The notes: a model not told the origin generated them from the sequence alone. 64,000 bases of DNA from Candidatus Uhrbacteria bacterium (GCA_963822405.1 CAWGHH010000001.1:293373-357372), one strand, 5' to 3'. Counted from the first letter of the stretch, positions 13,194 to 31,015 are shown. Numbers and translations are program-made.

Positions 13194-13910
13194 ATGTTGC
13201 TTTCGGTTGATGAGATCGCAATTAAGGAACGGGCGGACGCGCAAGCGCGAGAGATGAAGACTCGGATCGCGAAAGAAATGACGGATAAGACTATCTATTT
13301 ACCCGACGAATTTCCTGTTTCGGTTTTTATGGCCGGCTCTCCGGGTGCGGGGAAGACCGAGTCATCTCGAAACCTTATTGCGAGGTTGACTGGTGACGGT
13401 CGTGCGGTTCTGAGGATAGATACCGATGAGTTGCGTTCGTTGTTTTCGGAGTATAACGGCCATAACTCACATCTCTTCATGAGCGCAACTTCTTTTCTCG
13501 CAGACAAGATTCACGATCTTGCTTTGAAGAACGGACAGAGCTTTGTTTTTGACGGAACTCTTTCGAACATAAAACGCTCTCGCGAGAATATTGAGCGATC
13601 TCTATCGCGGATAAGGTTTGTCCAGATCGTGTATGTGTATCAAGATCCCTTATTGGCTTGGAGTTTTGTAAAGGCTCGCGAGGCAAAAGATGGGAGGGCT
13701 ATTCCAAAGAGTGATTTTATAGCGAAGTTCTTTGCCGCAAGAGAGAATGTAGATGCTTTAAAGAAGGAGTTTGGTGATAAAATCCGAGTAGATATGGTCG
13801 TGAAGAATATTGATGGTTCTGACTATAGTTACAGCGAAAATATCGACGTTGTTGACAGTCAGATTTTTGAAAAGTACACTAAAATTCAACTTGAAGGTTT
13901 GATTGACTAA
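13194..13910 (+). CDS. zeta-toxin family P-loop kinase
   Basis: 238 aa. Walker A FMAGSPGAGKTE. Conserved FVFDGTLSN (xxEGT/DGT motif of zeta/PezT UDP-GlcNAc kinases). Confidence 0.6.
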   Translation: MLLSVDEIAIKERADAQAREMKTRIAKEMTDKTIYLPDEFPVSVFMAGSPGAGKTESSRNLIARLTGDGRAVLRIDTDELRSLFSEYNGHNSHLFMSATSFLADKIHDLALKNGQSFVFDGTLSNIKRSRENIERSLSRIRFVQIVYVYQDPLLAWSFVKAREAKDGRAIPKSDFIAKFFAARENVDALKKEFGDKIRVDMVVKNIDGSDYSYSENIDVVDSQIFEKYTKIQLEGLID

Positions 13911-13915
13911 TTGCT

Positions 13916-14086
13916 ATGTCTACAGGAATTATTGCCGCTTTACGGTCTGGAGGCTCTGACCGCTCGAGCGCATTTTCAAAGTTTTTTCGCGAGGCATCTT
14001 CAACTGAAAAGAAGAAGGTTTTTCTGGATGTTGCAAAAAAAGCCAGTCAAGATCAGCGCGATGTCATGAAAGCACTTCGTCCATAG
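13916..14086 (+). CDS. small hypothetical ORF (56 aa) downstream of the zeta-toxin gene
   Basis: ATG at 13916 to TAG at 14084-14086 (MSTGIIAALRSGGSDRSS...VMKALRP). Below the ORF-track length cutoff. No recognisable motif. Confidence 0.2.
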   Translation: MSTGIIAALRSGGSDRSSAFSKFFREASSTEKKKVFLDVAKKASQDQRDVMKALRP

Positions 14087-14440
14087 AAATAAAAGGAGTC
14101 CCTGTCGGCAATGGCGGGGATTTTTGTTTTGTAAGGCTTATTACCGGAGCCGGTAAAAAGTATTCAGGATAGTTAGAGGTATTTTGCTGTAACAAAAAAA
14201 CCGATCAAATGATCGGGTGCTTTGTAGAAGTCGCGTCTCAAGAAGTCGTCCTCTTCAGCTTAGACCCGAGGAGCCCCCCGGGGAACACTGAAGCGCTTCA
14301 AGAGGTATTATTGCAACTTCGCCTCAAATATATCTCAAAATATCGGCTCCGTAAACTTACCCACAATGTACCTAATGAGCAATCTATATTACTTCATCGT
14401 CGGCAGGAACGAGAGTTGAGGAATATTCCGTTTACGCTAC

Positions 14441-14482
14441 TTGACTAGTGTAAACAAAAGTATATAATCTGTTTATACTAGC
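14441..14482 (+). promoter_or_regulatory. sigma70-like promoter (TTGACT-N16-TATAAT) with palindromic operator flanking the -10, upstream of the Fic gene
   Basis: TTGACT at 14441-14446 and TATAAT at 14463-14468. Inverted repeat TAGTGTAAACA (14446-14456) / TGTTTATACTA (14470-14480) brackets the -10. Confidence 0.45.
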
Positions 14483-14486
14483 TATT

Positions 14487-15650
14487 TTGCATAAACAAAA
14501 AAATTATATGCCAAAAAACATATTGGGTAATTTGAAGAAACATAAGAGCGGGTATCAATACCTTTCACTTTCGGCATTCCCGCCTGAGTTAAAGGAGGTG
14601 CTTTCTGGTGCATTATTAGAGAAGGCTGATTATGCACAATTTTGCTTGGGCAAGCTTTCCGGTATTACTCACCTTCTTCCGGATGTAGATTTTTTCATTT
14701 CTTCGTATATAACTAAAGACGCTACCTCTTCTTCGCAGATCGAGGGAACAAAAGCCACTATGGCCGACGCCTTTGAATATGCGGCAAATCCCAACGACGA
14801 TAATTCTGATGCCGATGATATTTCGCATTATATTTCCGCACTTCATTACGGTCTTAAGCGACTAGGCGGAGATAATTTCCCCTTCGCTTTGCGTTTTATC
14901 AAGGAGCTTCATAAAGAATTAATGAAGAATGCAAGGTCGACTCATTTTTCCGATCCAGGTGAGTTTCGCACGTCTCAAAACTGGATTGGTGGCACTACTC
15001 CAACCAATGCTAGTTTTGTGCCTCCTGCGCCGGAAGAACTCACTCGACCATTAAAAGATCTTGAGAGCTTCATACACGTCAGACACTTTCATCCGGTACT
15101 TCAAGCCGGCTTGCTTCATGCACAGTTCGAAACCATTCACCCATTTTTGGACGGTAACGGAAGAACGGGCCGGTTATTGATTACATTCTATTTGATTCAG
15201 CAAAGACTTCTTGAGAGACCGGTGCTGTTTTTGTCTTCTTACTTTAAGAAGCATCAGAAGCTCTACTATCAGAGGCTTTCCGGATACCACCATGGTGAAA
15301 TCGGTCCATGGCTTGATTTCTTTCTTGATGGAATTATCGAGACTGCAGAGCAGGCTATTTCGGTATCTATCGCCGTTACTGCCTTGAGAGATAAGGATTT
15401 AAAAACGGTAGCGACTCTCGGAAAATCAGTCTCTGAAGTTTCTTCGAATATTCTTCAGCGCTTATACCAGAATCCGATCGTGTCTACAGCGCTAATAGAA
15501 CAGTGGACCGGTTACACTAGACCAGGTGTTATCAAAATCATTGATAAGTTGATGAAAGTGGGAATTCTAGAACTTTATCGCAAGGGGGAGGGTACGAAAC
15601 CGTCTGTGTATATTCATCGTGAATATGTAAACTTGTTTGCTGAAAAGTAG
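14487..15650 (+). CDS. Fic family protein (AMPylase/phosphocholine-transferase fold) with C-terminal winged-helix domain
   Basis: 387 aa. Fic motif HPFLDGNGRTGRLLITFYL. The start may be the second ATG at 14508 (MPKNILG). Confidence 0.8.
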   Translation: MHKQKNYMPKNILGNLKKHKSGYQYLSLSAFPPELKEVLSGALLEKADYAQFCLGKLSGITHLLPDVDFFISSYITKDATSSSQIEGTKATMADAFEYAANPNDDNSDADDISHYISALHYGLKRLGGDNFPFALRFIKELHKELMKNARSTHFSDPGEFRTSQNWIGGTTPTNASFVPPAPEELTRPLKDLESFIHVRHFHPVLQAGLLHAQFETIHPFLDGNGRTGRLLITFYLIQQRLLERPVLFLSSYFKKHQKLYYQRLSGYHHGEIGPWLDFFLDGIIETAEQAISVSIAVTALRDKDLKTVATLGKSVSEVSSNILQRLYQNPIVSTALIEQWTGYTRPGVIKIIDKLMKVGILELYRKGEGTKPSVYIHREYVNLFAEK

Positions 15651-15710: not shown

Positions 15711-16244
15711 TTAAGGTGAATTCCGAATTTTCGCCCTAATTTGTTTATGGTTTGGGATTGTTTGTTCAACCAGTTTCCAAAACCTCACCGAGTGATTCAT
15801 CTGCGCCAAATGACACAGTTCATGGACGACAATATAGTCCACTTGTTCCTGTGTCAGATGAACAATCCGATAATTAAAACTCAGCGTTCCCGTACTGGTA
15901 CAACTACCCCAACGAGTTTTCTGATTTCTGATAGATACTTTCTTCCAGGACAACTTATAGAATTTATTGAAATAGTCGAGTCTCGACTCCACAAGTTCAA
16001 GCGCCCTATCTTTTAGCCGACCATAATCAGCCCTCGTCCCGCCACGTAGTAGACTTGGCGGTCGAGCCTTGGCTTTGGCGACGTGTTCAACTATCCACGC
16101 CGACTTCTGTTCGACGAACTGATTGATCATCCATGCTGGCACGCGCTTGTGTGCGGTGACCGTACACGCCCCATCCGCGCCAATGCGAATACGTATCCCA
16201 CGCGAGCGGGGGTGGCGTTTTAGTGCGAACTCGACGGAGGGCAT
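15711..16244 (-). CDS. DUF45/YgjP-like HExxH metal-dependent hydrolase
   Basis: 177 aa. VVHELCHLAQMNHSVRFWKLV matches the DUF45 signature. Divergent from hsdM. Confidence 0.65.
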   Translation of the reverse strand: MPSVEFALKRHPRSRGIRIRIGADGACTVTAHKRVPAWMINQFVEQKSAWIVEHVAKAKARPPSLLRGGTRADYGRLKDRALELVESRLDYFNKFYKLSWKKVSIRNQKTRWGSCTSTGTLSFNYRIVHLTQEQVDYIVVHELCHLAQMNHSVRFWKLVEQTIPNHKQIRAKIRNSP

Positions 16245-16361: not shown

Positions 16362-17921
16362 ATGACCAAAGAACAAGAACGTTCAGAGCTGCACCGTGCC
16401 ATTTGGCAAATTGCTAATGATCTTCGAGGAAGCGTGGATGGGTGGGATTTTAAGCAATATGTGCTTGGAATGCTTTTTTATCGGTTTATCAGCGAGAATT
16501 TAACGAATTACATTAATTCCGAGGAGCGTCGCACGGGAAAGAAGGATTTTGATTACGCCACACTTTCAGATAAGGAGGCTGAATTTGGTCGAGCCGATAC
16601 GGTGCAGGAGAAAGGTTTTTATATTCCGCCGAGGGATCTTTTTGTTAACGTTCGCAGTAAAGCTAGAAATAACCCCAATCTCAACGAATCACTGGTAAAT
16701 GTTTTTCGAGATATTGAGAGTTCCGCTAAGGGATTTGAAAGTGAAGACGATATTAAGGGATTATTTCAGGATCTCGACGTTAACTCAGCCAAGCTTGGTA
16801 ATACTGTAGAACAACGAAATCAAAAGCTTGTAAAGCTTCTTGAGGCTATTGGCGACCTTCGGCTTGGTAACTATTCGGACAATAGTATTGATGCTTTCGG
16901 CGACGCATATGAGTTCCTCATGACCATGTATGCATCGAGTGCAGGAAAGTCCGGGGGAGAGTTCTATACCCCGCAGGAAGTGAGCGAGCTTCTTGCCGAA
17001 ATTACCACTGTCGGCAAAAAAGAAGTAAATAAAGTGTATGACCCAGCGTGCGGATCTGGTTCTTTGCTTTTGAAGTTTGCCAAGGTGCTCGGAAAAGAAA
17101 ATGTTCGACAAGGTTTCTATGGTCAGGAGATTAATCTCACCACCTATAACCTCTGTCGTATCAACATGTTCTTGCACGACATTAACTACAATAATTTTGA
17201 CATTGCTCTTGGCGACACGTTGACCGATCCAAAGCATTGGGACGAAGAACCTTTTGACGCCATTGTTTCTAACCCGCCTTACTCAATTAACTGGGAAGGC
17301 GACGCTAATCCGCTCCTCATTAATGATCCTCGATTTGCGCCCGCCGGTGTACTCGCGCCAAAGAGTAAGGCTGATCTCGCGTTTACCATGCACATGCTTT
17401 CATGGCTTTCTACGAGTGGCACCGCTGCGATTGTTGAGTTCCCTGGTGTTCTCTATCGTGGTGGTGCAGAGCAGAAAATCAGAAAATATCTTGTAGACAA
17501 TAACTACGTTGATGCCGTTATTCAGCTTCCGCCTGATTTGTTCTTTGGTACTACTATTGCTACCTGTATTATCGTAATCAAGAAGAGCAAGAAAGATAAT
17601 AAAGTGCTATTTATTGATGCTTCAGCTGAATTTGCGAGAGGCGGGAACAAAAATAAGCTGTCAGATGTTAATCGAAAGAAAATATTGGACGCTTTCATTT
17701 CTCGTCAGGACGCTGAATATTTCGCAAAACTCGTCGACAACCAGGTAGTAACAGAAAACGATTACAACATCGCCGTATCAAGTTATGTGGTAGCGGAGGA
17801 TACACGGGAGGTCATCGATATCACAGAGCTCAATAAGAAAATTACCGGCATTGTTGCGCGCGAGAATGAGTTGCGCATTGCAATTGACGAGATTGTGGCG
17901 GATATTGAGGGAGTGAAATAG
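16362..17921 (+). CDS. hsdM: type I restriction-modification system DNA methyltransferase subunit
   Basis: 519 aa. N-terminal HsdM_N. Motif I DPACGSGSLL. Motif IV SNPPYS (N6-adenine MTase). Confidence 0.9.
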   Translation: MTKEQERSELHRAIWQIANDLRGSVDGWDFKQYVLGMLFYRFISENLTNYINSEERRTGKKDFDYATLSDKEAEFGRADTVQEKGFYIPPRDLFVNVRSKARNNPNLNESLVNVFRDIESSAKGFESEDDIKGLFQDLDVNSAKLGNTVEQRNQKLVKLLEAIGDLRLGNYSDNSIDAFGDAYEFLMTMYASSAGKSGGEFYTPQEVSELLAEITTVGKKEVNKVYDPACGSGSLLLKFAKVLGKENVRQGFYGQEINLTTYNLCRINMFLHDINYNNFDIALGDTLTDPKHWDEEPFDAIVSNPPYSINWEGDANPLLINDPRFAPAGVLAPKSKADLAFTMHMLSWLSTSGTAAIVEFPGVLYRGGAEQKIRKYLVDNNYVDAVIQLPPDLFFGTTIATCIIVIKKSKKDNKVLFIDASAEFARGGNKNKLSDVNRKKILDAFISRQDAEYFAKLVDNQVVTENDYNIAVSSYVVAEDTREVIDITELNKKITGIVARENELRIAIDEIVADIEGVK

Positions 17922-17924
17922 CCT

Positions 17925-18419
17925 ATGGAAGATCAACCAAACAATGAAATCGTTATCTATACCGGGGACGGCGGTCAACCCGTTATTCAGGTGCGTATTG
18001 TGGGGGAGACAGTCTGGCTAACTCAGGCGCAGCTGGCTGAGCTTTTCGGCACAACCAAGCAGAATATTAGCCTTCACATACAAAATATTTTTGAGGAGGG
18101 CGAGCTGGCTCCCCGAGCAACTGTCAAGGAATACTTGATAGTTCAAACAGAGGGAAATAGAGAGGTTTCCCGCCAAATAGATCATTACAATCTCGACCTC
18201 ATTATATCCGTTGGATATCGAATAAAATCCCAAATTGCGACACATTTTAGACAATGGGCCACGGCGCGGCTTCGGGAATATATTGTCAAAGGATTTACGA
18301 TGGATGACGAGCGTTTGGAAAACACTGGTGGCCAGTTGCGCAGATTCCTATATAAGTATAACTTCGAGCTAATCACCCATTTTTTTCAATGTTTTCCACG
18401 CCTTCTTCGTTGTGGATAA
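17925..18419 (+). CDS. RhuM-family virulence-protein N-terminal fragment (truncated paralog of the 29947-30912 RhuM-Doc protein)
   Basis: 164 aa. DLIISVGYRIKSQIATHFRQWATARLREYIVKGFTMDDERL aligns with AIISVGYRVNSVTATKFRQWATKTLRQHITKGYTINPKVI at 29947+. Lacks the C-terminal half. Confidence 0.5.
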   Translation: MEDQPNNEIVIYTGDGGQPVIQVRIVGETVWLTQAQLAELFGTTKQNISLHIQNIFEEGELAPRATVKEYLIVQTEGNREVSRQIDHYNLDLIISVGYRIKSQIATHFRQWATARLREYIVKGFTMDDERLENTGGQLRRFLYKYNFELITHFFQCFPRLLRCG

Positions 18420-18443: not shown

Positions 18444-19787
18444 ATGGCTCTCGACTGGCAACAGTTTGGATTAAAGAGAAACCCCTTCGATACACTCCCT
18501 TTAGTTGAGGGAGGAGATTTACCTATCGAGAAGGCCTTCGTCGGCAGAATGGATGAAAGAGATATGATTGATTCGTTATTCGAACAGGAAACGCACTTGT
18601 GTCTAATTGTCGCTGGCGAGGTGGGGGTTGGAAAGACTAGCTTGGTGAATTTCCAAAAATTCATTTGGAAATATAATAAATCAAAATTGCTATTCTCTTC
18701 GAGACGCGAAATTGAAGCTAGCAAGTACTTGTTAGATAAGAGAAACTTTTTACTTGAGATCATCGGTTCGGTACTTCGAGAGCTCCAATTGTTAGACCTA
18801 AATCTTTTGAAGGACCCCCTTCTCCAAAAAATAAAAACTGTTGTCGAAGTCAGTCAAAGCATAGCTATTTCTGGGGGCGCAAGCGCATTCGGATTTGGTC
18901 TGGATGCCAGCCACTCAAAAGAATTCACAGCACCTGTGGAACTGACCGTTTCTACACTTGAAGGATATTTACGGGATCTGGTAGGTTTTATAAAAGAGAC
19001 ACGGATAGGTGAATATAAGTATTCTGGACTCATCGTGCACGTTAATAATTTTGATGTTGTACTGAAGTCGGATGAGGGTGGCGTGAGAGAGTTTTTTGAC
19101 GAAATACGAGATATCTTACAGACCCCCGACGTGTTTTTCATATTTATTGGCCCATCAAACTTTTATGAAAAAGTGCTTGTACCTCTGCAGCGTGTGAGAG
19201 GCATTTTTTATCATCTTCCGCTCATAATTAAACCTATGAGCAAAACTGATCTTCGCACAGCGCTTGACGATCGAATGGAATTGCTCAAATCAGAGAACGT
19301 GTCAGTTTATGTAAAACCTTTTGAAGAGAAGCTGGTCTTTGAACTTTATGATTTATACGAGGGCGATGTTCGTTCTATCTTGAACGCACTTGTTTCCATC
19401 CTTCACGAATATAGCGACCGCCTCGCGAAGCCTCTTACAGTTAAGGAAGGCTTGCTGCTTTTGTGCCGTGAATTATGGAGAACGATTGAAAAGAACGCTT
19501 CGCCTACCGATGAACAAAAACAGATTCTACGGTTCATAGCGAATCAAAAAAATCCCGTCTCGAATAAAGAGATCGCTGATGCTCTCGGCAAGCAAGAAAG
19601 CAATATGTCAGCATATTATTTGAAGCCGTTAAAAGACGCCGGAATTATTGAGCTGAAAGAGCAGGTCGGCACTCGCAAGCTCTGGGGAATCTCCCAGCGA
19701 TATAGTATTCTTTCGAGATTTAGTGAGCTGCAGGATGGGGCTGTGACAGATTCGTCGAAGGATGTAGCACAGCTGCGCTTAATATAG
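18444..19787 (+). CDS. ORC/Cdc6-like AAA+ ATPase with C-terminal winged-helix domain
   Basis: 447 aa. FVGRMDERDMI (arch-ATPase FVGRxxE). Walker A AGEVGVGKTSL. Walker B-like LIVHVNNFD. Sensor FIFIGPSNF. C-terminal wHTH (ILRFIANQKNPVSNKEIADALG...). Confidence 0.55.
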   Translation: MALDWQQFGLKRNPFDTLPLVEGGDLPIEKAFVGRMDERDMIDSLFEQETHLCLIVAGEVGVGKTSLVNFQKFIWKYNKSKLLFSSRREIEASKYLLDKRNFLLEIIGSVLRELQLLDLNLLKDPLLQKIKTVVEVSQSIAISGGASAFGFGLDASHSKEFTAPVELTVSTLEGYLRDLVGFIKETRIGEYKYSGLIVHVNNFDVVLKSDEGGVREFFDEIRDILQTPDVFFIFIGPSNFYEKVLVPLQRVRGIFYHLPLIIKPMSKTDLRTALDDRMELLKSENVSVYVKPFEEKLVFELYDLYEGDVRSILNALVSILHEYSDRLAKPLTVKEGLLLLCRELWRTIEKNASPTDEQKQILRFIANQKNPVSNKEIADALGKQESNMSAYYLKPLKDAGIIELKEQVGTRKLWGISQRYSILSRFSELQDGAVTDSSKDVAQLRLI

Positions 19788-25800: not shown

Positions 25801-25902
25801 CCGGGCGGTGAACGTACAAAGAAGCGCGAGAGCGTATTGGGGAAATTAACACATTTCTTTGAGCGATTCTTTGATATTTCGGGTGGTAAGTTTTCAGATT
25901 GA
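22846..25902 (+). CDS. hsdR: type I restriction enzyme R subunit (helicase/endonuclease)
   Basis: 1018 aa. N-terminal PD-(D/E)xK region (VLVNGLPMVHIELK). Walker A HTTGSGKTLTS. DEAH-like VIIFDECHRSQ. Helicase C domain. Confidence 0.9.
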   Translation: MKMKKYNLVAEGAQSTVVSEYTPDNKRASHYQSEAELERAFVKQLEGQAYEYVTITSEEDLVINLRKQLEKLNDFSFTDAEWDRFFKNEIANPNQSIEEKTKTIQEDHVKILTRDDGAVKNIYLLKKDNIHNNSLQVINQYATDEGQRSNRYDVTVLVNGLPMVHIELKRRGVAIQEAFNQINRYHRESFWAAAGLFEYVQLFVISNGTHTKYYSNTTRAQHVKDSVGGAAKKGKRTSNSFEFTSWWADATNRPITDLMDFAKTFFAKHALLNILTRYCVFTSDHLLLVMRPYQIVATERILSRIEISTNYRKLGTVEAGGYVWHTTGSGKTLTSFKTAQLASKLPHVDKVLFVVDRKDLDYQTMQEYDKFEKGAANSNASTAILKRQMEDANSRIIVTTIQKLDRFIGRNSKHEIFDGHVVIIFDECHRSQFGDMHTAITKAFKNYHLFGFTGTPIFAANASAGGHPDLRTTEQAFGEKLHTYTIVDAIADKNVLPFKVDYVSTVREAENIEDKAVNDIDREAVLSAPERLSNIVEYIREHFDQKTKRNSFYQLKDRRLAGFNSIFAVSSIEMAKRYYAEFKKQLAGVPGDKQLKIATIFSFGVNDEDADGMIDENSEDTSGLDVSSRDFLENAIKDYNVMFGASYDTSSDKFQNYYKDVSQRVKNREIDVLIVVNMFLTGFDATTLNTLWVDKNLRLHGLVQAFSRTNRILNSVKTFGNIVCFRNLEKATNEAIALFGDKEASGIVLLKAYADYYNGYKNDGTEVRGYESLVKELQEKFPVGERILGEQDRKDFIRLYGAILRVRNILTTFDEFVGNEILTERDVQDYHSAYIDLYNEFRKQVEGEKENVNDDVVFEMELIKQIEINIDYVIGLIKKYHEGHTKDRELLVDINKAIDSSVELRNKKDLINQFITRLDVHSVVEDDWQKFVDEKKVEELDQIISNEGLDHDATYKFVQNAFRNGDIVGTGTAIAKIIPPVTRFSPGGERTKKRESVLGKLTHFFERFFDISGGKFSD

Positions 25903-25995: not shown

Positions 25996-26532
25996 ATGAC
26001 AAATTACGAACCAATCACAATTATTATATATTTATGTCAGGTTGTATTAGGATTGATTACAATTTTGTTGATGCTATATGGTTTGCGCAAGATTCAAAAG
26101 GTTTTTCCGATGATTGAAACTGTATATACGGCAAAAACACGATCTAATGGTCAGAATGGTCCGATTGTTTCTGATGCCCTTGGAAGTATTATGGTTACAT
26201 TGGCTACTCAAATTGCCGGTGAAGATTTGAATAATGGAGTAATGAGAATAATGACAAAGGGAACGTACTCGCCTCCTATCGTTTCCAGTGGCCTGGTGAA
26301 AAGTGGTCCCGGTTATCTCTTAGGTTTTGTGATAAACTCAGTAATCTCAGGCGCTACATTGAGAATCCTGGATGGTGCCGATAATTCCGGTGCAGCTATT
26401 TTTGATACGATGACTTTTACAGCAATGTTTAATGGGCCCAAAGTAATTTCGTTGCCTGCGGCGGTAGAATTTAATAATGGATGTTATTTTTGTGTCGATG
26501 GTACAATTTCAATTACTCCAATATTGAGTTAG
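25996..26532 (+). CDS. hypothetical membrane-anchored protein (island cargo)
   Basis: 178 aa. N-terminal TM (IIIYLCQVVLGLITILLMLYGL). AT-rich. No recognisable motif. Confidence 0.3.
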   Translation: MTNYEPITIIIYLCQVVLGLITILLMLYGLRKIQKVFPMIETVYTAKTRSNGQNGPIVSDALGSIMVTLATQIAGEDLNNGVMRIMTKGTYSPPIVSSGLVKSGPGYLLGFVINSVISGATLRILDGADNSGAAIFDTMTFTAMFNGPKVISLPAAVEFNNGCYFCVDGTISITPILS

Positions 26533-26634: not shown

Positions 26635-27228
26635 ATGCCCGAAATAATCTACATCCTCATCAATGAAGCCATGCCTGGTTATGTGAAGATAGGCATGACA
26701 ACTAATCTAGAACAGCGAATTCGTTCGCTTGATACAACTGGTGTTCCGTTGCCGTTTGAATGTTTTTACGCGTGTACGGTGAAGGATTGTACGTTTGTTG
26801 AGCGTCAGTTGCATGATGCATTTTTGGATCATCGAGTGCGCTCTAGCAGAGAATTCTTTGAGATATCACCCGAACGTGCCGTCGCAGCCCTGAAGCTTGC
26901 CGAAATAGAGAACATTACGCCAAAGAAGGACTTTGTGGAGACGCAGGAGGATCAGCAGGCGCTTAACGAAGCTAGAACAAGACGAGCGGTGTTTAATTTT
27001 GGCTTGGTAAATATTCCGGTTGGCGCAGAGCTAACGTTTAGTCGGGATGATAATCAGAAAGTAACCGTTATAGACAATAGGTCAGTCATGTTTAACGGAG
27101 AAATCACTAGTTTGTCAGCTTCGGCGCAAGAGTTACTTGGGTACCCGTACCAAGTACAGGGAACGGTTTATTGGTTGTATGAAGGGGAAACACTCGATGA
27201 AAGAAGGAAAAGATTTGAAAGCGGGTAG
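26635..27228 (+). CDS. T5orf172 (GIY-YIG-like) domain protein
   Basis: 197 aa. IYILINEAMPGYVKIGMTTNLEQRIRSL...ERQLHDAF...REFFEIS matches the T5orf172 pattern. Confidence 0.6.
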   Translation: MPEIIYILINEAMPGYVKIGMTTNLEQRIRSLDTTGVPLPFECFYACTVKDCTFVERQLHDAFLDHRVRSSREFFEISPERAVAALKLAEIENITPKKDFVETQEDQQALNEARTRRAVFNFGLVNIPVGAELTFSRDDNQKVTVIDNRSVMFNGEITSLSASAQELLGYPYQVQGTVYWLYEGETLDERRKRFESG

Positions 27229-27492
27229 ATGATCGCTAAACTTATTGAGGCTCGAGATGAAGATGCTTGGCGGATTAAGCTTGCTGATCTCACGGATAAC
27301 TTGAGGCAGTGTCACGGCCTATCGCTCGATAACCGACGATTCATGATTGAAGTGAAAGCCACGCTGATGCTTCGCCTAGCTAAGACTATGCCATTTAGTC
27401 GAATGATCACGGAGGAACCGCCATTTGTTCAGCCGAGCATCCTTGCTCTCCAGACAGAGATGGAAAAACAACGGGCGGGGTTGGGTCAATAA
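27229..27492 (+). CDS. small hypothetical protein
   Basis: 87-aa ORF overlapping the upstream stop codon (ATGA). No motif. Confidence 0.25.
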   Translation: MIAKLIEARDEDAWRIKLADLTDNLRQCHGLSLDNRRFMIEVKATLMLRLAKTMPFSRMITEEPPFVQPSILALQTEMEKQRAGLGQ

Positions 27493-27514
27493 ATTGATTT
27501 TATTCACGCTTATA

Positions 27515-27650
27515 GCCCCAAAACCGTGAAAAAGTAGTAAAAAATGGCATTCTGTCACGGTTATGGCTCGTAAATCGTGACAAAAGTGCATTTTATTGCA
27601 TTCTGTCACGGTTATGTTGCCAAAACCGTGACAGTAGTGTATAATGCTGA
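27515..27650 (+). promoter_or_regulatory. promoter (TTGCCA-N17-TATAAT) with multiple CGTGACA-core operator-like repeats upstream of the second Fic gene
   Basis: 19-mer GCATTCTGTCACGGTTATG occurs exactly twice (27547-27565 and 27599-27617). Inverted partner AAAACCGTGACAG (27622-27634) sits in the spacer. A further half-site AAATCGTGACAAAAG lies at 27573-27587. TATAAT at 27640-27645. Confidence 0.45.
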
Positions 27651-27653
27651 TAT

Positions 27654-28538
27654 ATGGCAAAAACGTTGGGTTCTTATAAAAAGATCAGTATATTGCGCGA
27701 ACGGTACTATCAGGTAGCAACGGGTAAAGATGCACTTTTGAAGCTTATTGCTGAGGTGGAAGTGGCGGAGCAGGTTTATAACTCAAATGCTATTGAGAAT
27801 AGCACTCTTAGTCTTGAAGAGACGGAAAAGATTCTTTTGCAAATTGATCTGGATCGGTACGTGGAAGGACGGGAGATTTTTGAGGCTAAGAACTTGGCGC
27901 GTGTTGTGGGCTATATTGATCACAAGGCGAAAGAGCAGGAATTGACGCTTGATGTCATGTTGTCACTTCATCAGATGCTGATCTTGAATATTCAAGATGA
28001 TATTGCTGGTAGATTCAGGAACGAAAAAGAATTTGTTCGCGTGGGCAGCTATATCGCGCCTAACCCGAAAGAAGTGGTTGGGCTTCTTGAAAAGATGCTC
28101 GCCGAATACAATGCTTCAAGTCACGAGAATATTATTAAGCGTATCGCTCGCCTACATTTAACATTTGAGCATATCCATCCATTTGTTGACGGGAATGGTC
28201 GCATCGGTCGAGTAATCAGTAATTATCTTCTTCTCCGAGAAGGCTTCGTGCCGATCAATATTAAGTTTATCGATCGGGACATGTACTATGAAGCATTTAA
28301 GGAATTCGATACTAAAGGAGAGACTAGGGTGATGGAGGAAATTGTTGGAAAGGCGTTGACTAATAGTTATCACAAACGACTTGCGTATCTAGAGGGGGCG
28401 GAAATAATGACACTAACTGAATACGGAAAAAAGAATAAGATTTCACGGACGAATTTAGTGAATAAAGCTAGCCGTCAAACAATCGAGGCGTTTTTGGAAA
28501 AAGGTATTTGGAAAATCGGAGTCAAACATGGCGTATAG
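27654..28538 (+). CDS. Fic family protein
   Basis: 294 aa. Fic motif HPFVDGNGRIGRVISNYLL. Confidence 0.8.
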   Translation: MAKTLGSYKKISILRERYYQVATGKDALLKLIAEVEVAEQVYNSNAIENSTLSLEETEKILLQIDLDRYVEGREIFEAKNLARVVGYIDHKAKEQELTLDVMLSLHQMLILNIQDDIAGRFRNEKEFVRVGSYIAPNPKEVVGLLEKMLAEYNASSHENIIKRIARLHLTFEHIHPFVDGNGRIGRVISNYLLLREGFVPINIKFIDRDMYYEAFKEFDTKGETRVMEEIVGKALTNSYHKRLAYLEGAEIMTLTEYGKKNKISRTNLVNKASRQTIEAFLEKGIWKIGVKHGV

Positions 28539-28551
28539 TGTTGGTTAGCCT

Positions 28552-29916
28552 ATGCTCTCCAAATCCTCTTTCATGCAGTTTCTCCGGTGTAGTTGCGAGC
28601 TGTGGCTGTATAAGCAACGGCCGGATTTGGCGCCGGAGTTTGATGAGGCGACCTTGAGAGTTTTTGCGACGGGTAATGAGGTAGACAGCTGGGCGCAGAA
28701 GCTGTACCCCAAGGCGGTGAATGTGATGGGGTTTGGGAAGAGGGGAGCGGAGGATATGAAGAAGGCGATTGCTCTTGGCGCAAAGGCGTTATTACAGCCG
28801 ACTTTTATTGTGAATGCGTTTGGGGGAGAGATTACCTGTAGAGCTGACATCATGAAGAAAAATAGTGACGATTCTTGGGATCTTCTAGAGGTAAAAAGCA
28901 CCACGGAGGTGAAGAAAGAGCACATCATGGATATGGCGTTTCAACGTATAGTCCTTGAGGAAGCCGGATTGAAGATTCGAAAGACTCTTCACGTCCACAT
29001 CGACAATCAATATGTTCGAGCGGGAGAAATTGAGCCAGAGAAGTTGTTCGCGCGTACAGATGTAACTCATGAGGTTGAGGAGCTATTGCCATTGTGTCGA
29101 AAAGAAATTCCGCGTGCGCTCTCTGTGCTCGATTGGGGGAAGGAACCGAACCTCGACATCATCAATAACTGTACTGACCCGGAGAAATGCGAATTCCGAG
29201 CATGTATTTTACAGGCGATGGGGGAGGAGGACGAGACGTACAGGATTAGTCCTGCCAACCCAAATTTGAAGATTGATAAGACGGCCATTAAAGAAGAGCT
29301 CGACAGCCTAACTTATCCTCTCTACTTTTTAGATTACGAAACATGGAATCCTGCTATTCCGGCTTTTGATGGCTACAAGCCGTATCAGCAGTGCGTGTTT
29401 CAATATTCAATCCATATTTTGAAATCACCAAAGGCCAAGCTAGAACACGTTGAGGTTTTGGTTGACGAGTTAGTTGATCCGGCGCCGATTATTGCAAAAG
29501 CGCTGGCCGAGCATATCGGTCCGACGGGCAGTGTCATTTCTTGGAACATGATTTTCGAGGCTTCTCGAAATGAAGAACTCGGCGACCTCGTTCCTGAATA
29601 TGCTGATCAACTACGAAGCATTAACGAACGGATGTTCGACCTCATGATGATCGTGAAAAAGGGTTACTACAAAGACGCACGCTTTGGGGGCAGTGCATCC
29701 TTGAAAAAAGTTCTCCCAGTTCTGTGTCCCGAACTTTCTTACGACTCTCTGGCTATCCATGAAGGTGGCACCGCCTCCGCCAGCTGGCCTGTCCTCACGA
29801 ACCCGTCGACCACGCCTGCCGACAAAGCTCAACTCCGCAAAGACATGCTCGCTTATTGCGAACTAGATACATTGGCGATGGTGGAAATTTATAAGAAGTT
29901 TTTAACGATTGTGTAA
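28552..29916 (+). CDS. DUF2779-like protein: N-terminal Cas4/RecB-type PD-(D/E)xK nuclease fused to C-terminal DEDDy-type 3'-5' exonuclease-like domain
   Basis: 454 aa. Cys-rich N-terminus. RADIMKKNSDDSWDLLEVKST (D...E-V-K). C-terminal LYFLDYETWNP (Exo I-like D-x-E) and YCELDTLAMVEIY (Y-x3-D). Confidence 0.45.
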   Translation: MLSKSSFMQFLRCSCELWLYKQRPDLAPEFDEATLRVFATGNEVDSWAQKLYPKAVNVMGFGKRGAEDMKKAIALGAKALLQPTFIVNAFGGEITCRADIMKKNSDDSWDLLEVKSTTEVKKEHIMDMAFQRIVLEEAGLKIRKTLHVHIDNQYVRAGEIEPEKLFARTDVTHEVEELLPLCRKEIPRALSVLDWGKEPNLDIINNCTDPEKCEFRACILQAMGEEDETYRISPANPNLKIDKTAIKEELDSLTYPLYFLDYETWNPAIPAFDGYKPYQQCVFQYSIHILKSPKAKLEHVEVLVDELVDPAPIIAKALAEHIGPTGSVISWNMIFEASRNEELGDLVPEYADQLRSINERMFDLMMIVKKGYYKDARFGGSASLKKVLPVLCPELSYDSLAIHEGGTASASWPVLTNPSTTPADKAQLRKDMLAYCELDTLAMVEIYKKFLTIV

Positions 29917-29946
29917 GTTTTGAGTTTTGGTATATTGATCCTTGAT

Positions 29947-30912
29947 ATGAAAAAGAAAACCGGATTGGTTGTATATCAGACAAAGACCGGAGCGATCGAG
30001 CTTCGGGGCGATGCTGAAAAACAGACTCTCTGGGCAACTCTCGATCAGATTGCTGATGTTTTTGGACGTGATAAATCTGTGATTTCGCGCCATTTTTCGA
30101 GTATTTTCAAAGAAAAAGAGCTTGACCGAAATTCAGTTGTTGCAAAAAATGCAACAACTGCCGCTGATGGCAAAACCTATCAAGTAGCGTTTTATAATTT
30201 GGACGCGATTATCTCGGTTGGATACCGTGTTAATTCGGTTACTGCCACGAAATTCCGTCAGTGGGCAACGAAAACTTTACGTCAACACATTACTAAAGGA
30301 TACACTATAAACCCAAAGGTAATTAAGAATAACTACGCCGAATTCCAGAGGGCTATTGCGGGAATTAGGCATCTTTTGCCTGAGGGGTCGCCGATTGATC
30401 ATGCGAGCGTACTCGAGCTCATTTCCGCTTTTGCTGATACTTGGTTGTCGCTCGATGCTTATGACAAGGAGAATCTCGTAACAAAAGGGGCGACGAAAAA
30501 GTCCGTTACTTTAACGGCCGAACAACTTTCGGCAGCGCTTTCGGATTTTAAGACGGAACTCGTAAAGAAAGGCGAGGCGACTGAATTGTTCGGCATCGAA
30601 CGGAATGCTGGGAATGTGCAGGGTATTGTCGGGAATGTCATGCAGTCTTTTGGTGGAAAGGCGATGTATGCCACCATTGAGGAGAAGGCGGCGCATCTTC
30701 TATATTTCATTATCAAAAATCATCCATTTACGGACGGGAATAAGCGCAGCGGCGCCTATGCCTTTATTTGGTTCTTGCACCGTGCGGGCACCCTTGATCG
30801 CTCAAGAATCACTCCGCCAGCTCTCACCGCTTTAACGTTGTTTATCGCTGAAAGTGATCCTAAGAATAAAGAGCAGATGACTAAACTTGTTTTGCAGTTG
30901 CTGAAAAAATAG
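29947..30912 (+). CDS. RhuM-family N-terminal domain fused to Doc/Fic-type (death-on-curing) domain
   Basis: ORF-track 29920-30912. Likely start MKKKTGL at 29947. RhuM block AIISVGYRVNSVTATKFRQWATKTL. Doc motif HPFTDGNKRSGAYAF. Confidence 0.65.
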   Translation: MKKKTGLVVYQTKTGAIELRGDAEKQTLWATLDQIADVFGRDKSVISRHFSSIFKEKELDRNSVVAKNATTAADGKTYQVAFYNLDAIISVGYRVNSVTATKFRQWATKTLRQHITKGYTINPKVIKNNYAEFQRAIAGIRHLLPEGSPIDHASVLELISAFADTWLSLDAYDKENLVTKGATKKSVTLTAEQLSAALSDFKTELVKKGEATELFGIERNAGNVQGIVGNVMQSFGGKAMYATIEEKAAHLLYFIIKNHPFTDGNKRSGAYAFIWFLHRAGTLDRSRITPPALTALTLFIAESDPKNKEQMTKLVLQLLKK

Positions 30913-30929
30913 CCGCTATAGAGTTCGAT

Positions 30930-31015
30930 TCCGCAAAGGCGTGCTCGTCTATTGTGAGTTCGACACGCTAGCGATGGTGGAGATTTATAGGAAGTTTCAC
31001 TTAGTAATTCTATAG
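30930..31015 (+). pseudogene. 3' remnant of a second DUF2779-family gene (encodes ...KGVLVYCEFDTLAMVEIYRKFHLVIL*)
   Basis: About 80% nucleotide identity over roughly 70 nt to 29855-29916, the C-terminus YCELDTLAMVEIYKKFLTIV* of the 28552-29916 gene. In-frame with its own stop. No upstream reading frame. Confidence 0.5.

What the first reader, a model, noticed from the sequence alone, without database searches (positions are those of the whole stretch)
13194..31015. AT-rich defence and toxin island of about 18 kb
From the zeta toxin to the DUF2779 remnant, the sequence is visibly more AT-rich than the flanking housekeeping DNA, especially at 19.8-22 kb and 26-27 kb. The island holds:
- two Fic genes with near-consensus sigma70 promoters and operator-like repeats;
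- a DUF45 hydrolase;
- a full type I restriction-modification system with the embedded four-gene insertion;
- an unknown membrane protein;
- a T5orf172 protein;
- a PD-(D/E)xK-plus-DEDD exonuclease fusion (DUF2779-like);
- a RhuM-Doc fusion.
No integrase or tRNA bounds it inside the window. The left edge coincides with a GT-rich repeat and the right edge with a gene remnant. The unknown genes (25996-26532, 27229-27492, 19917-20474) are candidates for uncharacterised defence or abortive-infection functions.
Basis: partly seen in the sequence, partly recalled or inferred. Interest (0 to 1): 0.6.

Follow-up and report, generated by a model that had tools for sequence, protein, structure and literature searches.

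The report
Defence-gene island in a CPR bacterium
An 18-kb AT-rich block of anti-phage and toxin genes (type I restriction-modification, Shedu, SoFic and others) sits between two housekeeping genes of a tiny-genome Patescibacteria (CPR) bacterium; it is a typical defence island, but two poorly known gene families inside its restriction operon turn out to be recurrent passengers of restriction-modification operons elsewhere.

Summary
Window 13194-31015 is 42.6% GC against 48.8% outside, and it is the lowest-GC stretch of its length in the 64 kb. It holds a type IC restriction-modification (R-M) system, Shedu (SduA), SoFic, a zeta-toxin kinase, a second Fic, a RhuM-Fic fusion, T5orf172, DUF2779 and YgjP.

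The host is a Patescibacteria (CPR) bacterium related to Uhrbacteria. In 11 relatives, and in one distant CPR, pheS-pheT-o120-dnaE is a conserved block with none of these genes. The DNA is therefore accessory.

The island is a mosaic. Per-gene GC runs from 29% to 49%. A closely related R-M operon elsewhere is the compact hsdM-o185-hsdS-hsdR. A 76-nt DUF2779 3' end is duplicated on either side of RhuM-Fic. I found no integrase, no bona fide tRNA and no att-like repeats.

- The "GT-rich repeat" is a motif found across the window in front of gene starts.
- ORF 14209-14448 overlaps a DUF3800-V RNA on the opposite strand.
- A degenerate tRNA-like element and a riboswitch-controlled, 3'-short metK lie just right of the island.

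New points:
- o185 (19917-20474) belongs to a rare family found next to hsdS in 6 of 7 lineages. It shares a domain with AbiJ-like proteins.
- The 447-aa ATPase is Orc1/Cdc6-like, widespread in CPR, and often embedded in type III and type I R-M operons.

Verdict: a new member of a known kind, of moderate interest.

The parts
12858..13172 (+). o120. A conserved small membrane protein that forms the left anchor of the insertion site. The likely true start is the ATG at 12858, directly preceded by a heptamer array.
   Evidence: Homologues lie between pheT and dnaE in 11 relatives and in L038.
13194..13910 (+). Zeta-toxin-family P-loop kinase with Walker A GSPGAGKT. There is no upstream epsilon-like gene. 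A 56-aa ORF (13916-14086) and a strong terminator (14094-14125) follow it.
   Evidence: Pfam Zeta_toxin 2.2e-40. The 56-aa ORF has no family hit. Terminator.
14226..14321 (-). DUF3800-V structured RNA, followed on the same strand by a terminator-like hairpin (14216-14201). It overlaps the doubtful ORF 14209-14448.
   Evidence: Rfam RF02964 at 55.4 bits (gathering score 37.4), full length 1-96/96. Hairpin.
14487..15650 (+). SoFic-type Fic AMP-transferase. Motif HPFLDGNGRTGR at residue 218 and inhibitory-helix motif SSQIEG at residue 82. Its promoter TTGACT-16-TATAAT (14441-14468) lies inside a 27-nt imperfect palindrome.
   Evidence: PADLOC SoFic 1.6e-101, full length. Pfam Fic_N+Fic. Solved SoFic structures match at 2.6e-33. 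Motifs. Promoter and palindrome.
15711..16244 (-). YgjP-like/DUF45 metallohydrolase, a frequent neighbour of type I R-M systems.
   Evidence: Pfam YgjP-like 3e-42. The same family sits directly after hsdR in L025-L029.
16362..17921 (+). HsdM, the type I methyltransferase subunit.
   Evidence: Pfam N6_Mtase 4e-114 plus HsdM_N. 85% aa identity to the L017 hsdM.
17925..18419 (+). RhuM N-terminal-domain protein (164 aa, PDC-S05 candidate), embedded after hsdM.
   Evidence: Pfam Virulence_RhuM 1-73/252. PADLOC PDC-S05 5e-59, including models of 138-174 aa.
18444..19787 (+). Orc1/Cdc6-like AAA+ ATPase with a C-terminal winged helix (447 aa). It belongs to a CPR-wide family that recurs inside R-M operons.
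   Evidence: AlphaFold model pLDDT 83. Foldseek best hits are archaeal Orc1/Cdc6 at 9e-10. At least 270 clusters. Contexts.
19917..20474 (+). o185. A helical protein with an N-terminal hydrophobic helix. It is a type I R-M-linked accessory gene whose C-terminal domain is shared with AbiJ-like proteins.
20471..21532 (+). Shedu nuclease SduA (DUF4263). GC 29%, GC3 16%. Its start and stop overlap o185 and hsdS.
   Evidence: PADLOC SduA 1.7e-95, full length. Pfam SduA_N and SduA_C. Solved SduA 8ti8 matches at 4.4e-9 with the D...EIK motif aligned. Composition.
21529..22776 (+). HsdS with two target-recognition domains. Its central conserved region carries a perfect 12-bp x 4.1 tandem repeat (22091-22139, encoding AELE x4).
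   Evidence: Pfam Methylase_S, two stretches. TRF 100% matches. Copy number is 4 in L017/L018 and 3 in L013.
22846..25902 (+). HsdR, of the type IC-like family (EcoR124_C domain).
   Evidence: Pfam HSDR_N, SWI2_SNF2, T1R_D3-like and EcoR124_C (5e-67). PADLOC REase_I 1180 bits.
25996..26532 (+). o178. An orphan ORF with one N-terminal hydrophobic helix, GC 38%. It lies between hsdR and T5orf172.
   Evidence: It has no relative other than itself in 5.8e9 proteins. No family hit. In L115, T5orf172 follows hsdR directly.
26635..27492 (+). T5orf172/GIY-YIG-like protein (PDC-S57 candidate), plus the abutting 87-aa ORF (27229-27492) of unknown function.
   Evidence: Pfam T5orf172 3e-17. PADLOC PDC-S57 5e-75. 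A 53%-identical homologue sits directly after hsdR in L115.
27493..28538 (+). Second Fic gene (PDC-S04; motif HPFVDGNGRIGR), with its leader. The leader carries three 37-nt repeats at 51-nt spacing, each holding a TCACGG...CCGTGA palindrome. They overlap the promoter TTGCCA-17-TATAAT.
28552..29916 (+). DUF2779 protein with a Cas4-like PD-(D/E)xK N-terminal part. Its composition is host-like (GC 48%).
   Evidence: Pfam DUF2779 5e-38 and Cas_Cas4 2.6e-4. Composition.
29920..30912 (+). RhuM-Fic/Doc fusion (PDC-S23 candidate; motif HPFTDGNKR).
   Evidence: PADLOC PDC-S23 2.8e-109. Pfam Virulence_RhuM plus Fic.
30922..31015 (+). Remnant of a DUF2779 3' end (...YCEFDTLAMVEIYRKFHLVIL*). Together with 29826-29901 it forms a 76-nt, 78%-identical direct repeat around RhuM-Fic. 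It marks the compositional right edge.
31016..33566 (.). High-GC DNA that is also absent from the relatives' pheT-dnaE interval. It holds three small ORFs, metK (32070-33026, -; 318 aa, C-terminal domain only 1-80/138), its SAM-I riboswitch (33058-33154, -) and a degenerate tRNA-like element (33273-33348, -).

Best explanation
This is a composite, horizontally acquired defence island in a Patescibacteria (CPR, Uhrbacteria-like) chromosome. It lies in a variable interval inside the otherwise conserved block pheS-pheT-o120-dnaE. It was built stepwise by nested insertions and cassette replacements, not delivered as one element.

Its core is a type IC R-M operon of the form hsdM-o185-hsdS-hsdR. 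Further genes were inserted at its gene junctions: RhuM-N and an Orc1/Cdc6-like ATPase after hsdM, and Shedu in front of hsdS. Stand-alone toxin or abortive-infection genes surround it: SoFic, zeta kinase, a second Fic, RhuM-Fic, T5orf172 and DUF2779.

Functionally (inferred from the families involved) it gives layered immunity:
- The R-M system methylates self DNA and cuts unmodified incoming DNA.
- Shedu cuts DNA after sensing free ends.
- The Fic enzymes and the zeta kinase act as suicide or growth-arrest effectors.
- o185 and the Orc1/Cdc6-like ATPase are probably accessory factors that work with, or guard, the R-M enzyme (speculative).
For: - Atypical composition: 42.6% against 48.8% GC, the window-wide minimum, p = 4e-12.
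- Synteny: 11 relatives (PheT 47-51% and DnaE about 72% identical) have pheS-pheT-[0.5-4.3 kb of AstE-like, PLP-enzyme or unknown genes at genome-typical GC]-o120-dnaE. None has an island gene. The distant CPR contig L038 has pheT-o120(+)-dnaE with only 230 bp between o120 and dnaE.
- Defence content: SoFic, type I R-M, Shedu, PDC-S04/S05/S23/S57.
- Mosaic origin:
  - Per-gene GC runs from 29% to 49%.
  - L017/L018 carry hsdM (85% aa identity)-o183-hsdS-hsdR (82%) with nothing embedded.
  - L013 has a different 340-aa gene at the hsdM junction.
  - L030 has hsdM (87%)-AAA-wHTH (80%) without RhuM.
  - The DUF2779 3' end is duplicated around RhuM-Fic.
  - There are weak hsdS 5'-end remnants at 19819-19845 and at the start of sduA.
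- Intactness: full-length model matches and intact catalytic motifs in SduA, SoFic, Fic2, HsdM, HsdS and HsdR.
- Precedents: genomic islands carrying a type I R-M in Patescibacteria (PMC12455944), and defence genes embedded in type I R-M operons (bioRxiv 10.1101/2024.04.04.588119).
Against: - No integrase, no bona fide tRNA and no flanking direct repeats beyond chance. The route of acquisition is therefore unknown.
- The nearest comparable genomes are only about 50% identical in PheT. The time and order of the insertions cannot be resolved, and no strain lacking the island was found.
- No activity is shown for any gene.
- Four of the PADLOC hits are only 'candidate' families.
- The zeta kinase lacks a recognisable antitoxin, and its role in defence is not established.
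- The hsdS-remnant evidence is weak (score 28 against a shuffle maximum of 24).
Confidence: 0.8

Rival explanations
1. The island is the remnant of a single integrative element (ICE, or a prophage-like or recombinase-borne island) that integrated next to a tRNA gene. It later lost its integrase, and the tRNA decayed.
For: - A degenerate tRNA-like sequence lies at 33273-33348 (-). Its acceptor, D and T arms are good, but its anticodon arm is broken. No such element is present in the relatives.
- The closest relatives of the R-M core (L013, L017) carry a serine recombinase directly after hsdR, plus ParB-methylase genes, i.e. a mobile context.
- metK is 3'-short, which is compatible with a breakpoint near 32.1 kb.
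Against: - No recombinase or integrase domain is present in 13-33.5 kb.
- No att-like repeats.
- Per-gene GC from 29% to 49%, and several internal junction remnants, indicate several separate events.
- The tRNA-like element is 2.3 kb beyond the compositional edge. High-GC genes, including a riboswitch-controlled metK, lie in between.
Confidence: 0.15
2. The genes are mainly addiction (toxin-antitoxin-like) and selfish modules that persist by post-segregational killing. They are not a working anti-phage arsenal.
For: - Zeta toxin, three Fic/Doc-type proteins and a MazF-like gene at 9911-10294 are classical toxin families.
- R-M systems themselves behave as addiction modules (established knowledge).
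- The Orc1/Cdc6-like gene turns up wedged into tight housekeeping operons (pheS|pheT, yebC|ruvC). This looks like selfish spread.
Against: - SoFic and Shedu are experimentally validated anti-phage systems in other bacteria (PMC12249575; bioRxiv 10.1101/2023.08.10.552793).
- No cognate antitoxin genes were recognised next to zeta, MazF-like or SoFic.
- The two roles are not mutually exclusive.
Confidence: 0.1
3. The low-GC block is an assembly or binning chimera: foreign DNA joined into a CPR contig.
For: - The source is a metagenome-derived 366-kb contig.
- Composition changes abruptly at 31.0 kb.
- The only independent contig found (L024, 99.98% identical) covers 17917-22120. It does not cover the junctions.
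Against: - Both flanks belong to one conserved syntenic block (pheT-o120 ... dnaE) in 12 other CPR genomes. A chimera would have to enter and leave exactly within that block.
- The Orc1/Cdc6-like gene inside the island belongs to a CPR-restricted family, with a 49% paralogue on the same contig.
- DUF2779, YgjP and o87 have host-like GC.
Confidence: 0.03

Closest known systems
Defence islands and genomic islands carrying type I R-M systems in Patescibacteria (PMC12455944, mSystems 2025)
   Same: Both are clusters of defence genes of atypical composition in a streamlined CPR genome, with a full type I R-M system inside the island. In that study, horizontally transferred defence genes were enriched in Patescibacteria.
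   Different: This island packs at least seven further recognised or candidate systems around and inside the R-M operon: Shedu, SoFic, a second Fic, RhuM-Fic, T5orf172, zeta kinase and DUF2779. Its insertion site, pheT-o120 | dnaE, is defined by synteny.
Defence genes embedded in type I R-M operons: TgvAB in V. cholerae VPI-2 (bioRxiv 10.1101/2024.04.04.588119); the PrrC anticodon nuclease in the EcoprrI type IC locus (from my own knowledge)
   Same: Extra genes sit between the hsd genes and are apparently co-transcribed. The R-M system is of the type IC kind, with an EcoR124_C domain in HsdR and a tetrapeptide repeat in the HsdS spacer region.
   Different: The embedded genes here are different: RhuM-N, an Orc1/Cdc6-like ATPase, o185 and Shedu. 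There are four of them at two junctions. No GmrSD-like or PrrC-like domains were found.
Shedu (SduA), as solved for Bacillus cereus (PDB 8ti8) and E. coli (8ps4)
   Same: Full-length DUF4263 architecture (SduA_N plus SduA_C). The PD-(D/E)xK D...EIK motif aligns. It matches PADLOC subfamily PDLC00390 at 1.7e-95.
   Different: Shedu is normally a stand-alone gene. Here its start and stop codons overlap o185 and hsdS, so it is probably expressed as part of the R-M operon. Its GC3 is 16% in a 49% GC genome.
SoFic (Shewanella oneidensis Fic AMP-transferase; anti-phage abortive-infection system)
   Same: Fic_N plus Fic plus a C-terminal domain. Catalytic motif HPFxDGNGRxxR and inhibitory motif SxxxEG. 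Full-length match to the PADLOC SoFic model and to the solved SoFic structures.
   Different: No small downstream antitoxin gene like AS1 (PMC12249575) is present; the next gene is a convergent YgjP. Upstream lies a DUF3800-V RNA on the opposite strand.
BrxC / BrxD / DUF499 ORC-Cdc6-clade AAA+ ATPases of BREX and BREX-related systems (PMC12839542)
   Same: All are ORC/Cdc6-like AAA+ modules followed by a winged helix, encoded inside operons built around a DNA methyltransferase and a nuclease or helicase. Walker A (GxxGVGKT) and an acidic Walker-B-like NNFD are invariant.
   Different: This protein is only about 450 aa, against about 1200 aa for BrxC. No PglZ, BrxA or BrxB is nearby. Its partners are classical type III Mod/Res or type I Hsd genes. 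About two thirds of the copies are not next to R-M genes at all. It is not in PADLOC or NCBIfam.
AbiJ-like abortive-infection proteins (AbiJ_NTD3 + Abi_C/HEPN)
   Same: The C-terminal ~110 residues of o185 match the C-terminal extension of ~390-420-aa AbiJ-like proteins. The profile E-value is down to 2e-16, and the conserved motif is SDIFFA...KDNxQA.
   Different: o185 has neither the AbiJ N-terminal domain nor the HEPN (Abi_C) domain. Instead it has an N-terminal hydrophobic helix, and it is encoded next to hsdS.

Membership tests
Defence island (clustered anti-phage systems in accessory DNA) | Several independent, recognised defence systems lie adjacent to each other. | tested here: met
   PADLOC recognises SoFic, type I R-M (MTase_I, Specificity_I, REase_I) and SduA, plus the candidate families PDC-S04, S05, S23 and S57, all within 18 kb.
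Defence island (clustered anti-phage systems in accessory DNA) | Variable presence: absent from the same site in related genomes. | tested here: met
   11 relatives and L038 keep pheS-pheT-o120-dnaE without any island gene. No conspecific genome was available.
Classical genomic island (integrase-mediated) | Atypical base composition and codon usage. | tested here: met
   42.6% against 48.8% GC. GC3 falls to 0.16 in SduA.
Classical genomic island (integrase-mediated) | Integrase or recombinase gene, an adjacent tRNA gene and flanking direct repeats. | tested here: not met
   No recombinase domain. Only a sub-threshold tRNA-like element, 18.9 bits against a gathering score of 29, lying 2.3 kb away. 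The longest junction repeat is 8-10 nt, which is the chance level.
Type I restriction-modification, family IC | HsdM, an HsdS with two target-recognition domains, and HsdR, all full length in one operon. | tested here: met
   Pfam and PADLOC give full-length matches.
Type I restriction-modification, family IC | EcoR124-type HsdR C-terminal domain, and a short tandem peptide repeat in the central conserved region of HsdS. | tested here: met
   EcoR124_C 5e-67. A 12-bp x 4.1 perfect repeat encodes AELE x4; L013 has 3 copies. The link to the EcoR124I/II spacer repeat comes from my own knowledge.
Type I restriction-modification, family IC | Sequence-specific methylation and restriction activity. 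| not testable with these tools
   This needs methylome data or an assay.
Shedu | SduA with a DUF4263 nuclease domain and the PD-(D/E)xK catalytic motif. | tested here: met
   SduA_N plus SduA_C. PDLC00390 1.7e-95 over residues 1-344. The D...EIK motif aligns with 8ti8.
SoFic | Fic_N plus Fic with the HPFx(D/E)GNGRxxR motif and an intramolecular inhibitory (S/T)xxxE(G/N) motif. | tested here: met
   HPFLDGNGRTGR at residue 218 and SSQIEG at residue 82. PADLOC SoFic 1.6e-101. Solved SoFic structures match at 2.6e-33.
Epsilon/zeta (PezAT) toxin-antitoxin | A zeta-toxin kinase domain with Walker A. | tested here: met
   Pfam Zeta_toxin 2.2e-40; GSPGAGKT.
Epsilon/zeta (PezAT) toxin-antitoxin | A cognate epsilon/PezA antitoxin gene directly upstream. 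| tested here: not met
   The upstream gene is the conserved membrane protein o120, 21 bp away. Only an unassigned 56-aa ORF lies downstream.
PrrC/RloC-type R-M-guarded anticodon nucleases (considered for o185) | A gene embedded in a type I R-M operon. | tested here: met
   6 of 7 o185-family lineages lie next to hsdS inside hsd operons.
PrrC/RloC-type R-M-guarded anticodon nucleases (considered for o185) | An ABC-type ATPase N-domain plus a C-terminal nuclease domain. | tested here: not met
   No Pfam, PADLOC or NCBIfam hit. The model is all-helical, with no PDB match better than E = 0.47.
AbiJ (considered for o185) | An AbiJ N-terminal domain plus the Abi_C (HEPN) domain. | tested here: not met
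   Only the C-terminal extension is shared. o185 has no Abi_C or AbiJ_NTD hit.
BREX BrxC-like ATPase (considered for the 447-aa ATPase) | An ORC/Cdc6-clade AAA+ core plus a winged helix. | tested here: met
   Foldseek top hits are 1w5t, 2qby and 2v1u at about 1e-9, from a model with pLDDT 83. The wHTH gives weak Pfam and PADLOC hits at residues 348-420.
BREX BrxC-like ATPase (considered for the 447-aa ATPase) | About 1200 aa, multidomain, encoded with PglZ/BrxX/BrxA/BrxB. | tested here: not met
   447 aa. No BREX model hit in PADLOC. The neighbours are hsd or mod/res genes, or housekeeping genes.

The most novel reading that the evidence does not exclude
R-M operons of CPR bacteria carry two undescribed accessory components.

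(1) A ~450-aa Orc1/Cdc6-like AAA+/winged-helix ATPase. It is encoded between mod and res of type III systems, or among the hsd genes of type I systems. It may act as a minimal BrxC-like DNA-sensing or scaffolding partner of classical restriction enzymes.

(2) The o185 family. It is translationally coupled to hsdS and shares a domain with AbiJ-like proteins. It may act as an R-M-guarded abortive-infection effector or adaptor, analogous in logic to PrrC with EcoprrI.

On this reading, the recurrent set SoFic-hsdM/S-o185-hsdR-T5orf172, seen both here and in L115 around R-M enzymes only 27% identical, would be a functional multi-layer unit and not a chance neighbourhood.
Probability: 0.3. Interest if true: 0.65.

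Novelty: new member of a known kind. Interest (0 to 1): 0.45.

Why it matters
CPR/Patescibacteria have genomes of about 1 Mb, mostly lack CRISPR-Cas and cannot be cultured alone, so how they resist phages is inferred almost entirely from sequence.

This locus shows that such a genome can devote about 18 kb to at least eight recognised or candidate defence modules at one chromosomal hotspot. It also shows how the cluster was assembled, by insertions at the gene junctions of a type I R-M operon.

The comparative work yields two testable leads that reach beyond this genome. One is an Orc1/Cdc6-like ATPase family that is widespread in CPR and repeatedly embedded in type III and type I R-M operons. 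The other is a rare helical protein family that is almost always encoded next to hsdS. If either modulates or backs up restriction, it would extend the set of R-M-associated immunity factors.

Tried and rejected
- E. coli genomes megablast with the left flank: no match. The window is not enterobacterial despite about 49% GC.
- Exact-protein look-up of PheT: not on record, so no conspecific genomes with or without the island were found.
- tRNA scan of 11 relatives: none at this site, so there is no conserved tRNA integration target.
- Search for att-like repeats between the two junctions: only 8-10-nt matches, which is the chance level.
- The relatives' gap genes searched against the window: none present. 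Their Pfam content is metabolic or unknown, not defence.
- o178: no homologue at all. o87, the 56-aa ORF and the three small ORFs at 31.07-32.0 kb: no family.
- The o185 model against the PDB: no meaningful match.
- Looking for a frameshifted continuation of metK: none found.
- A remnant of an hsdM 3' end upstream of o185: not significant (1/500 and 99/500 shuffles). I dropped this point.
- The idea that the Orc1/Cdc6-like ATPase is strictly R-M-linked: rejected. Only about one third of the loci with enough flank have Mod or Res next to it. The paralogue in the same genome sits among pentose-phosphate genes.
- The heptamer motif in related loci: no exact matches, so it is species-specific.
- Literature search for 'DUF3800-V': no paper in the library. 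Only the original 2017 motif survey (PMC5737381) covers it.

Full report
**1. The observation**

Per-kb GC is 0.33-0.476 across 13-31 kb and about 0.47-0.535 on both sides. Computed exactly, 13194-31015 is 42.6% GC against 48.8% for the rest of the window. Of all windows of that length, the lowest-GC one starts at 13101. In 500-bp bins the two sets differ with Mann-Whitney p = 4e-12.

Per-gene values are heterogeneous:
- SduA: GC 29%, GC3 16%.
- o178: 38%.
- o185: 38.5%.
- Most other island genes: 41-45%.
- YgjP, o87 and DUF2779: 48-49%, which is host-like.

Genes just outside are 51-58% (pheS, pheT, the three small ORFs at 31.07-32.0 kb, metK, dnaE).

**2. What the genes are**

Pfam and PADLOC give, from left to right:
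- A zeta-toxin kinase.
- A SoFic-type Fic enzyme (PADLOC SoFic 1.6e-101; motifs HPFLDGNGRTGR and SSQIEG; full-length match to solved SoFic structures).
- YgjP/DUF45, on the minus strand.
- HsdM.
- A RhuM N-domain protein (PDC-S05).
- A 447-aa AAA+/winged-helix protein.
- o185.
- SduA, i.e. Shedu (1.7e-95 full length; related to solved SduA 8ti8 with the D...EIK motif aligned).
- HsdS.
- HsdR with an EcoR124_C domain, so type IC-like.
- The orphan o178.
- T5orf172 (PDC-S57, 5e-75) with an abutting 87-aa ORF.
- A second Fic (PDC-S04).
- DUF2779 with a Cas4-like N-terminal part.
- A RhuM-Fic fusion (PDC-S23, 2.8e-109).

The two best sigma70-like matches in the island (11/12) sit just upstream of the two Fic genes. 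One lies inside a 27-nt imperfect palindrome. The other lies within three 37-nt repeats spaced 51 nt apart, each with a TCACGG...CCGTGA palindrome.

It lacked two names that matter: Shedu and SoFic.

**3. Host and synteny**

The flanks are pheS and pheT on the left, and metK and dnaE on the right. The best PheT relatives in 185,579 species genomes are Candidatus Uhrbacteria / Patescibacteria MAGs, 47-51% identical.

In all 11 of them the order is pheS-pheT-[0.5-4.3 kb]-o120 homologue-dnaE. None of the island genes, nor metK, lies within 10 kb. Their gap holds an AstE-like enzyme, a Cys/Met PLP enzyme and unknown proteins at genome-typical GC. None of these is present in the window.

A distant CPR contig (L038; PheT 35% identical) has pheT-o120(+)-dnaE with only 230 bp between o120 and dnaE. 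This is in effect an empty site with the same o120 orientation as the window.

The DNA between o120 and dnaE (13173-33566) is thus specific to this lineage. It has a low-GC defence part (to 31015) and a high-GC part. The high-GC part holds three small ORFs, a metK controlled by a SAM-I riboswitch (Rfam 59 bits) and a degenerate tRNA-like element.

That test fails, so the accessory interpretation stands.

**4. How the island was built**

I found no integrase or recombinase domain, no bona fide tRNA and no junction repeats beyond chance. Several observations point instead to stepwise, nested assembly.

(a) Contigs L017 and L018 (GC 31%) carry hsdM-o183-hsdS-hsdR. HsdM is 85% and HsdR 82% identical to the window's proteins, and nothing else is embedded. 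L013 has a different 340-aa gene at the hsdM junction. L030 has hsdM (87%) followed by the AAA-wHTH gene (80%) without RhuM. The window's operon is therefore the compact form plus RhuM-N and AAA-wHTH after hsdM, and SduA in front of hsdS.

(b) SduA's extreme GC3 (16%) marks it as a recent import. Even so, its start overlaps the o185 stop, and its stop overlaps the hsdS start.

(c) Short sequences resembling the conserved 5' end of hsdS occur at 19819-19845 and at the 5' end of sduA. In each case 0 of 500 shuffles reach the score, but the margins are small. This suggests recombination at the hsdS start.

(d) A 76-nt stretch of the DUF2779 3' end is repeated, at 78% identity, on either side of RhuM-Fic. 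The second copy still translates to ...YCEFDTLAMVEIYRKFHLVIL. This is the signature of a cassette replacement, and it is the compositional right edge.

(e) In L115, T5orf172 follows hsdR directly. In the window the low-GC orphan o178 sits between them.

**5. The 'unknown' genes**

*o185 (19917-20474).* It has only four clusters among 5.8 billion proteins, and 52 representatives at E <= 1e-3 in a profile search of 1.84 billion.

Six of the seven stand-alone lineages whose context I could read lie inside type I R-M operons, directly next to hsdS and usually with overlapping stop and start codons:
- hsdM-o185-hsdS (window, L013, L017).
- hsdS-o187-hsdR (L021).
- hsdS-o191-hsdR (L110).
- hsdS-o197 (L113).
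- hsdS-o182-hsdR (L115).

The seventh lies on a 1.8-kb contig and is uninformative. The R-M enzymes involved are as little as 27% identical, so the linkage is to type I R-M as such.

The C-terminal ~110 residues of o185 match the C-terminal extension of ~390-420-aa proteins with AbiJ_NTD3 and Abi_C (HEPN) domains (E down to 2e-16). The model is all-helical with a hydrophobic N-terminal helix and has no PDB match.

My reading is that o185 is an R-M-associated adaptor or backup effector. This is an inference; nothing here shows its activity.

*The 447-aa ATPase (18444-19787).* The model has pLDDT 83 and is most similar to archaeal Orc1/Cdc6 (about 1e-9), with a C-terminal winged helix. Walker A and an NNFD Walker-B-like motif are invariant.

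The family has at least 270 clusters of ~450 aa, all from CPR lineages. Its contexts are:
- Of 79 metagenome loci, 14 of the 40 with at least 1.5 kb upstream have a type III Mod gene directly upstream. Nine of the 33 with enough downstream flank have a Res gene directly downstream.
- One lineage sits in hsdM-hsdS-X-hsdR-YgjP.
- Other copies are wedged between pheS and pheT (L038) or among yebC and the ruv genes.
- The paralogue in the same genome lies among pentose-phosphate genes.

The family is not in PADLOC or NCBIfam. The closest known analogues are the ORC/Cdc6-clade ATPases BrxC, BrxD and DUF499 of methylation-based BREX-type systems (PMC12839542).

*o178* is an orphan. *o87* has no family. 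For these two, 'candidate defence gene' rests on position alone.

**6. A recurring set**

L115 encodes SoFic-like (35% identical)-hsdM-hsdS-o182-hsdR-T5orf172 (53% identical) around an R-M system only 27% identical in HsdM. This is the same accessory set as in the window. With only two instances it is an observation, not a statistic.

**7. How it most likely works**

Shown here: the genes are intact, they carry the catalytic motifs of their families, and their arrangement suggests co-transcription on the plus strand.

Inferred from the families:
- The type IC enzyme methylates its bipartite site and cleaves unmodified DNA after translocation. The perfect 12-bp x 4 repeat in the hsdS spacer region (3 copies in L013) would set the spacer length, and could change by slippage as in EcoR124I/II (from my own knowledge).
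- Shedu cleaves DNA after sensing free ends (bioRxiv 10.1101/2023.08.10.552762).
- SoFic AMPylates cellular targets and aborts infection (PMC12249575).
- The remaining Fic/Doc, zeta and T5orf172 genes are growth-arrest or nuclease effectors with their own autoregulated promoters.

**8. Comparison with what is known, and verdict**

Three things are already described: defence islands, genomic islands with type I R-M in Patescibacteria (PMC12455944), and defence genes embedded in type I R-M operons (TgvAB, bioRxiv 10.1101/2024.04.04.588119).

The island is therefore a new member of a known kind. It is unusually dense for a CPR genome, and its assembly can be read from the sequence. The two R-M-linked families are the part worth following up.

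Interest: 0.45.

Noticed in passing
window 9911-10294 (+): A MazF/PemK-like toxin gene (Pfam 4.4e-9, GC 42%) is wedged between pheS and pheT. These two genes are directly adjacent (4-bp gap) in all 11 relatives. No antitoxin gene is evident. A 39%-identical homologue occurs in L044. In L038 the same pheS|pheT junction holds the Orc1/Cdc6-like ATPase instead.
   Followed up: partly
window 14226-14321 (-): A full-length match to Rfam DUF3800-V RNA (55 bits), followed by a terminator-like hairpin. It lies between the zeta kinase and SoFic, and no DUF3800 gene was found nearby. These RNAs are of unknown function and were described only as associated with DUF3800 genes (PMC5737381).
   Followed up: partly
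window 8401-8427, 8813-8840, 12151-12184, 12828-12858, 38349-38368, 38432-38460: Tandem heptamer arrays (ACNCCCT)x3-5: 17 hits against 0.28 expected. Three of them end exactly in the ATG of a gene (pheS, o120 and the gene at 38458). Reverse copies lie just after stop codons. One lies inside the pheT coding sequence. None was found in related loci. They may be an unusual translation or transcription leader, or the ends of small insertions.
   Followed up: partly
window 8438-8848 (+): A '23S rRNA intervening-sequence protein' gene (Pfam 1.4e-38, bAvd-like four-helix bundle) sits just upstream of pheS. It is bracketed by heptamer arrays in inverted orientation, as if it were an inserted cassette.
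   Followed up: no
window 32070-33154 (-): metK with an intact SAM-I riboswitch leader (59 bits). The protein is only 318 aa: the C-terminal Pfam domain stops at 80/138, and no frame continues it. The gene may be 3'-truncated at a rearrangement breakpoint near 32.1 kb. metK is not at this site in the relatives.
   Followed up: partly
window 33273-33348 (-): A tRNA-like sequence with good acceptor, D and T arms but a defective anticodon arm (6-nt loop). ARAGORN calls it 'tRNA-???'. Rfam tRNA gives 18.9 bits, below the gathering score of 29. It is absent from the 11 relatives. It could be a decayed tRNA or the relic of an integration site.
   Followed up: partly
window 22091-22139 (hsdS): A perfect 12-bp x 4.1 tandem repeat encodes AELE x4 in the central conserved region of HsdS. 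Homologues have 4 copies (L017, L018) or 3 (L013). This may be a slippage-prone determinant of the recognition-site spacer length.
   Followed up: partly
L031, L047, L051, L054, L070, L088 and others: In many CPR metagenome contigs the Orc1/Cdc6-like ATPase family is encoded between a type III Mod methyltransferase and a Res helicase-nuclease, with gaps of about 20-200 bp on the same strand.
   Followed up: partly
L115 1627-10133: An unrelated contig carries SoFic-like-hsdM-hsdS-o182-hsdR-T5orf172. This is the same accessory set as the window, around a type I R-M system only 27% identical in HsdM.
   Followed up: partly
L013 7003-12509; L017 7989-11183: The closest relatives of the window's R-M core are followed by a serine recombinase, ParB-methyltransferase genes and an Nmad3-domain gene. 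There the R-M module appears to ride on a mobile element; in the window it does not.
   Followed up: no
window 31585-31615 and 32015-32045: Two 84%-identical terminator hairpins (GAGGCCTCC...GGAGGCCTTTT) follow consecutive small ORFs in the high-GC segment to the right of the island.
   Followed up: no
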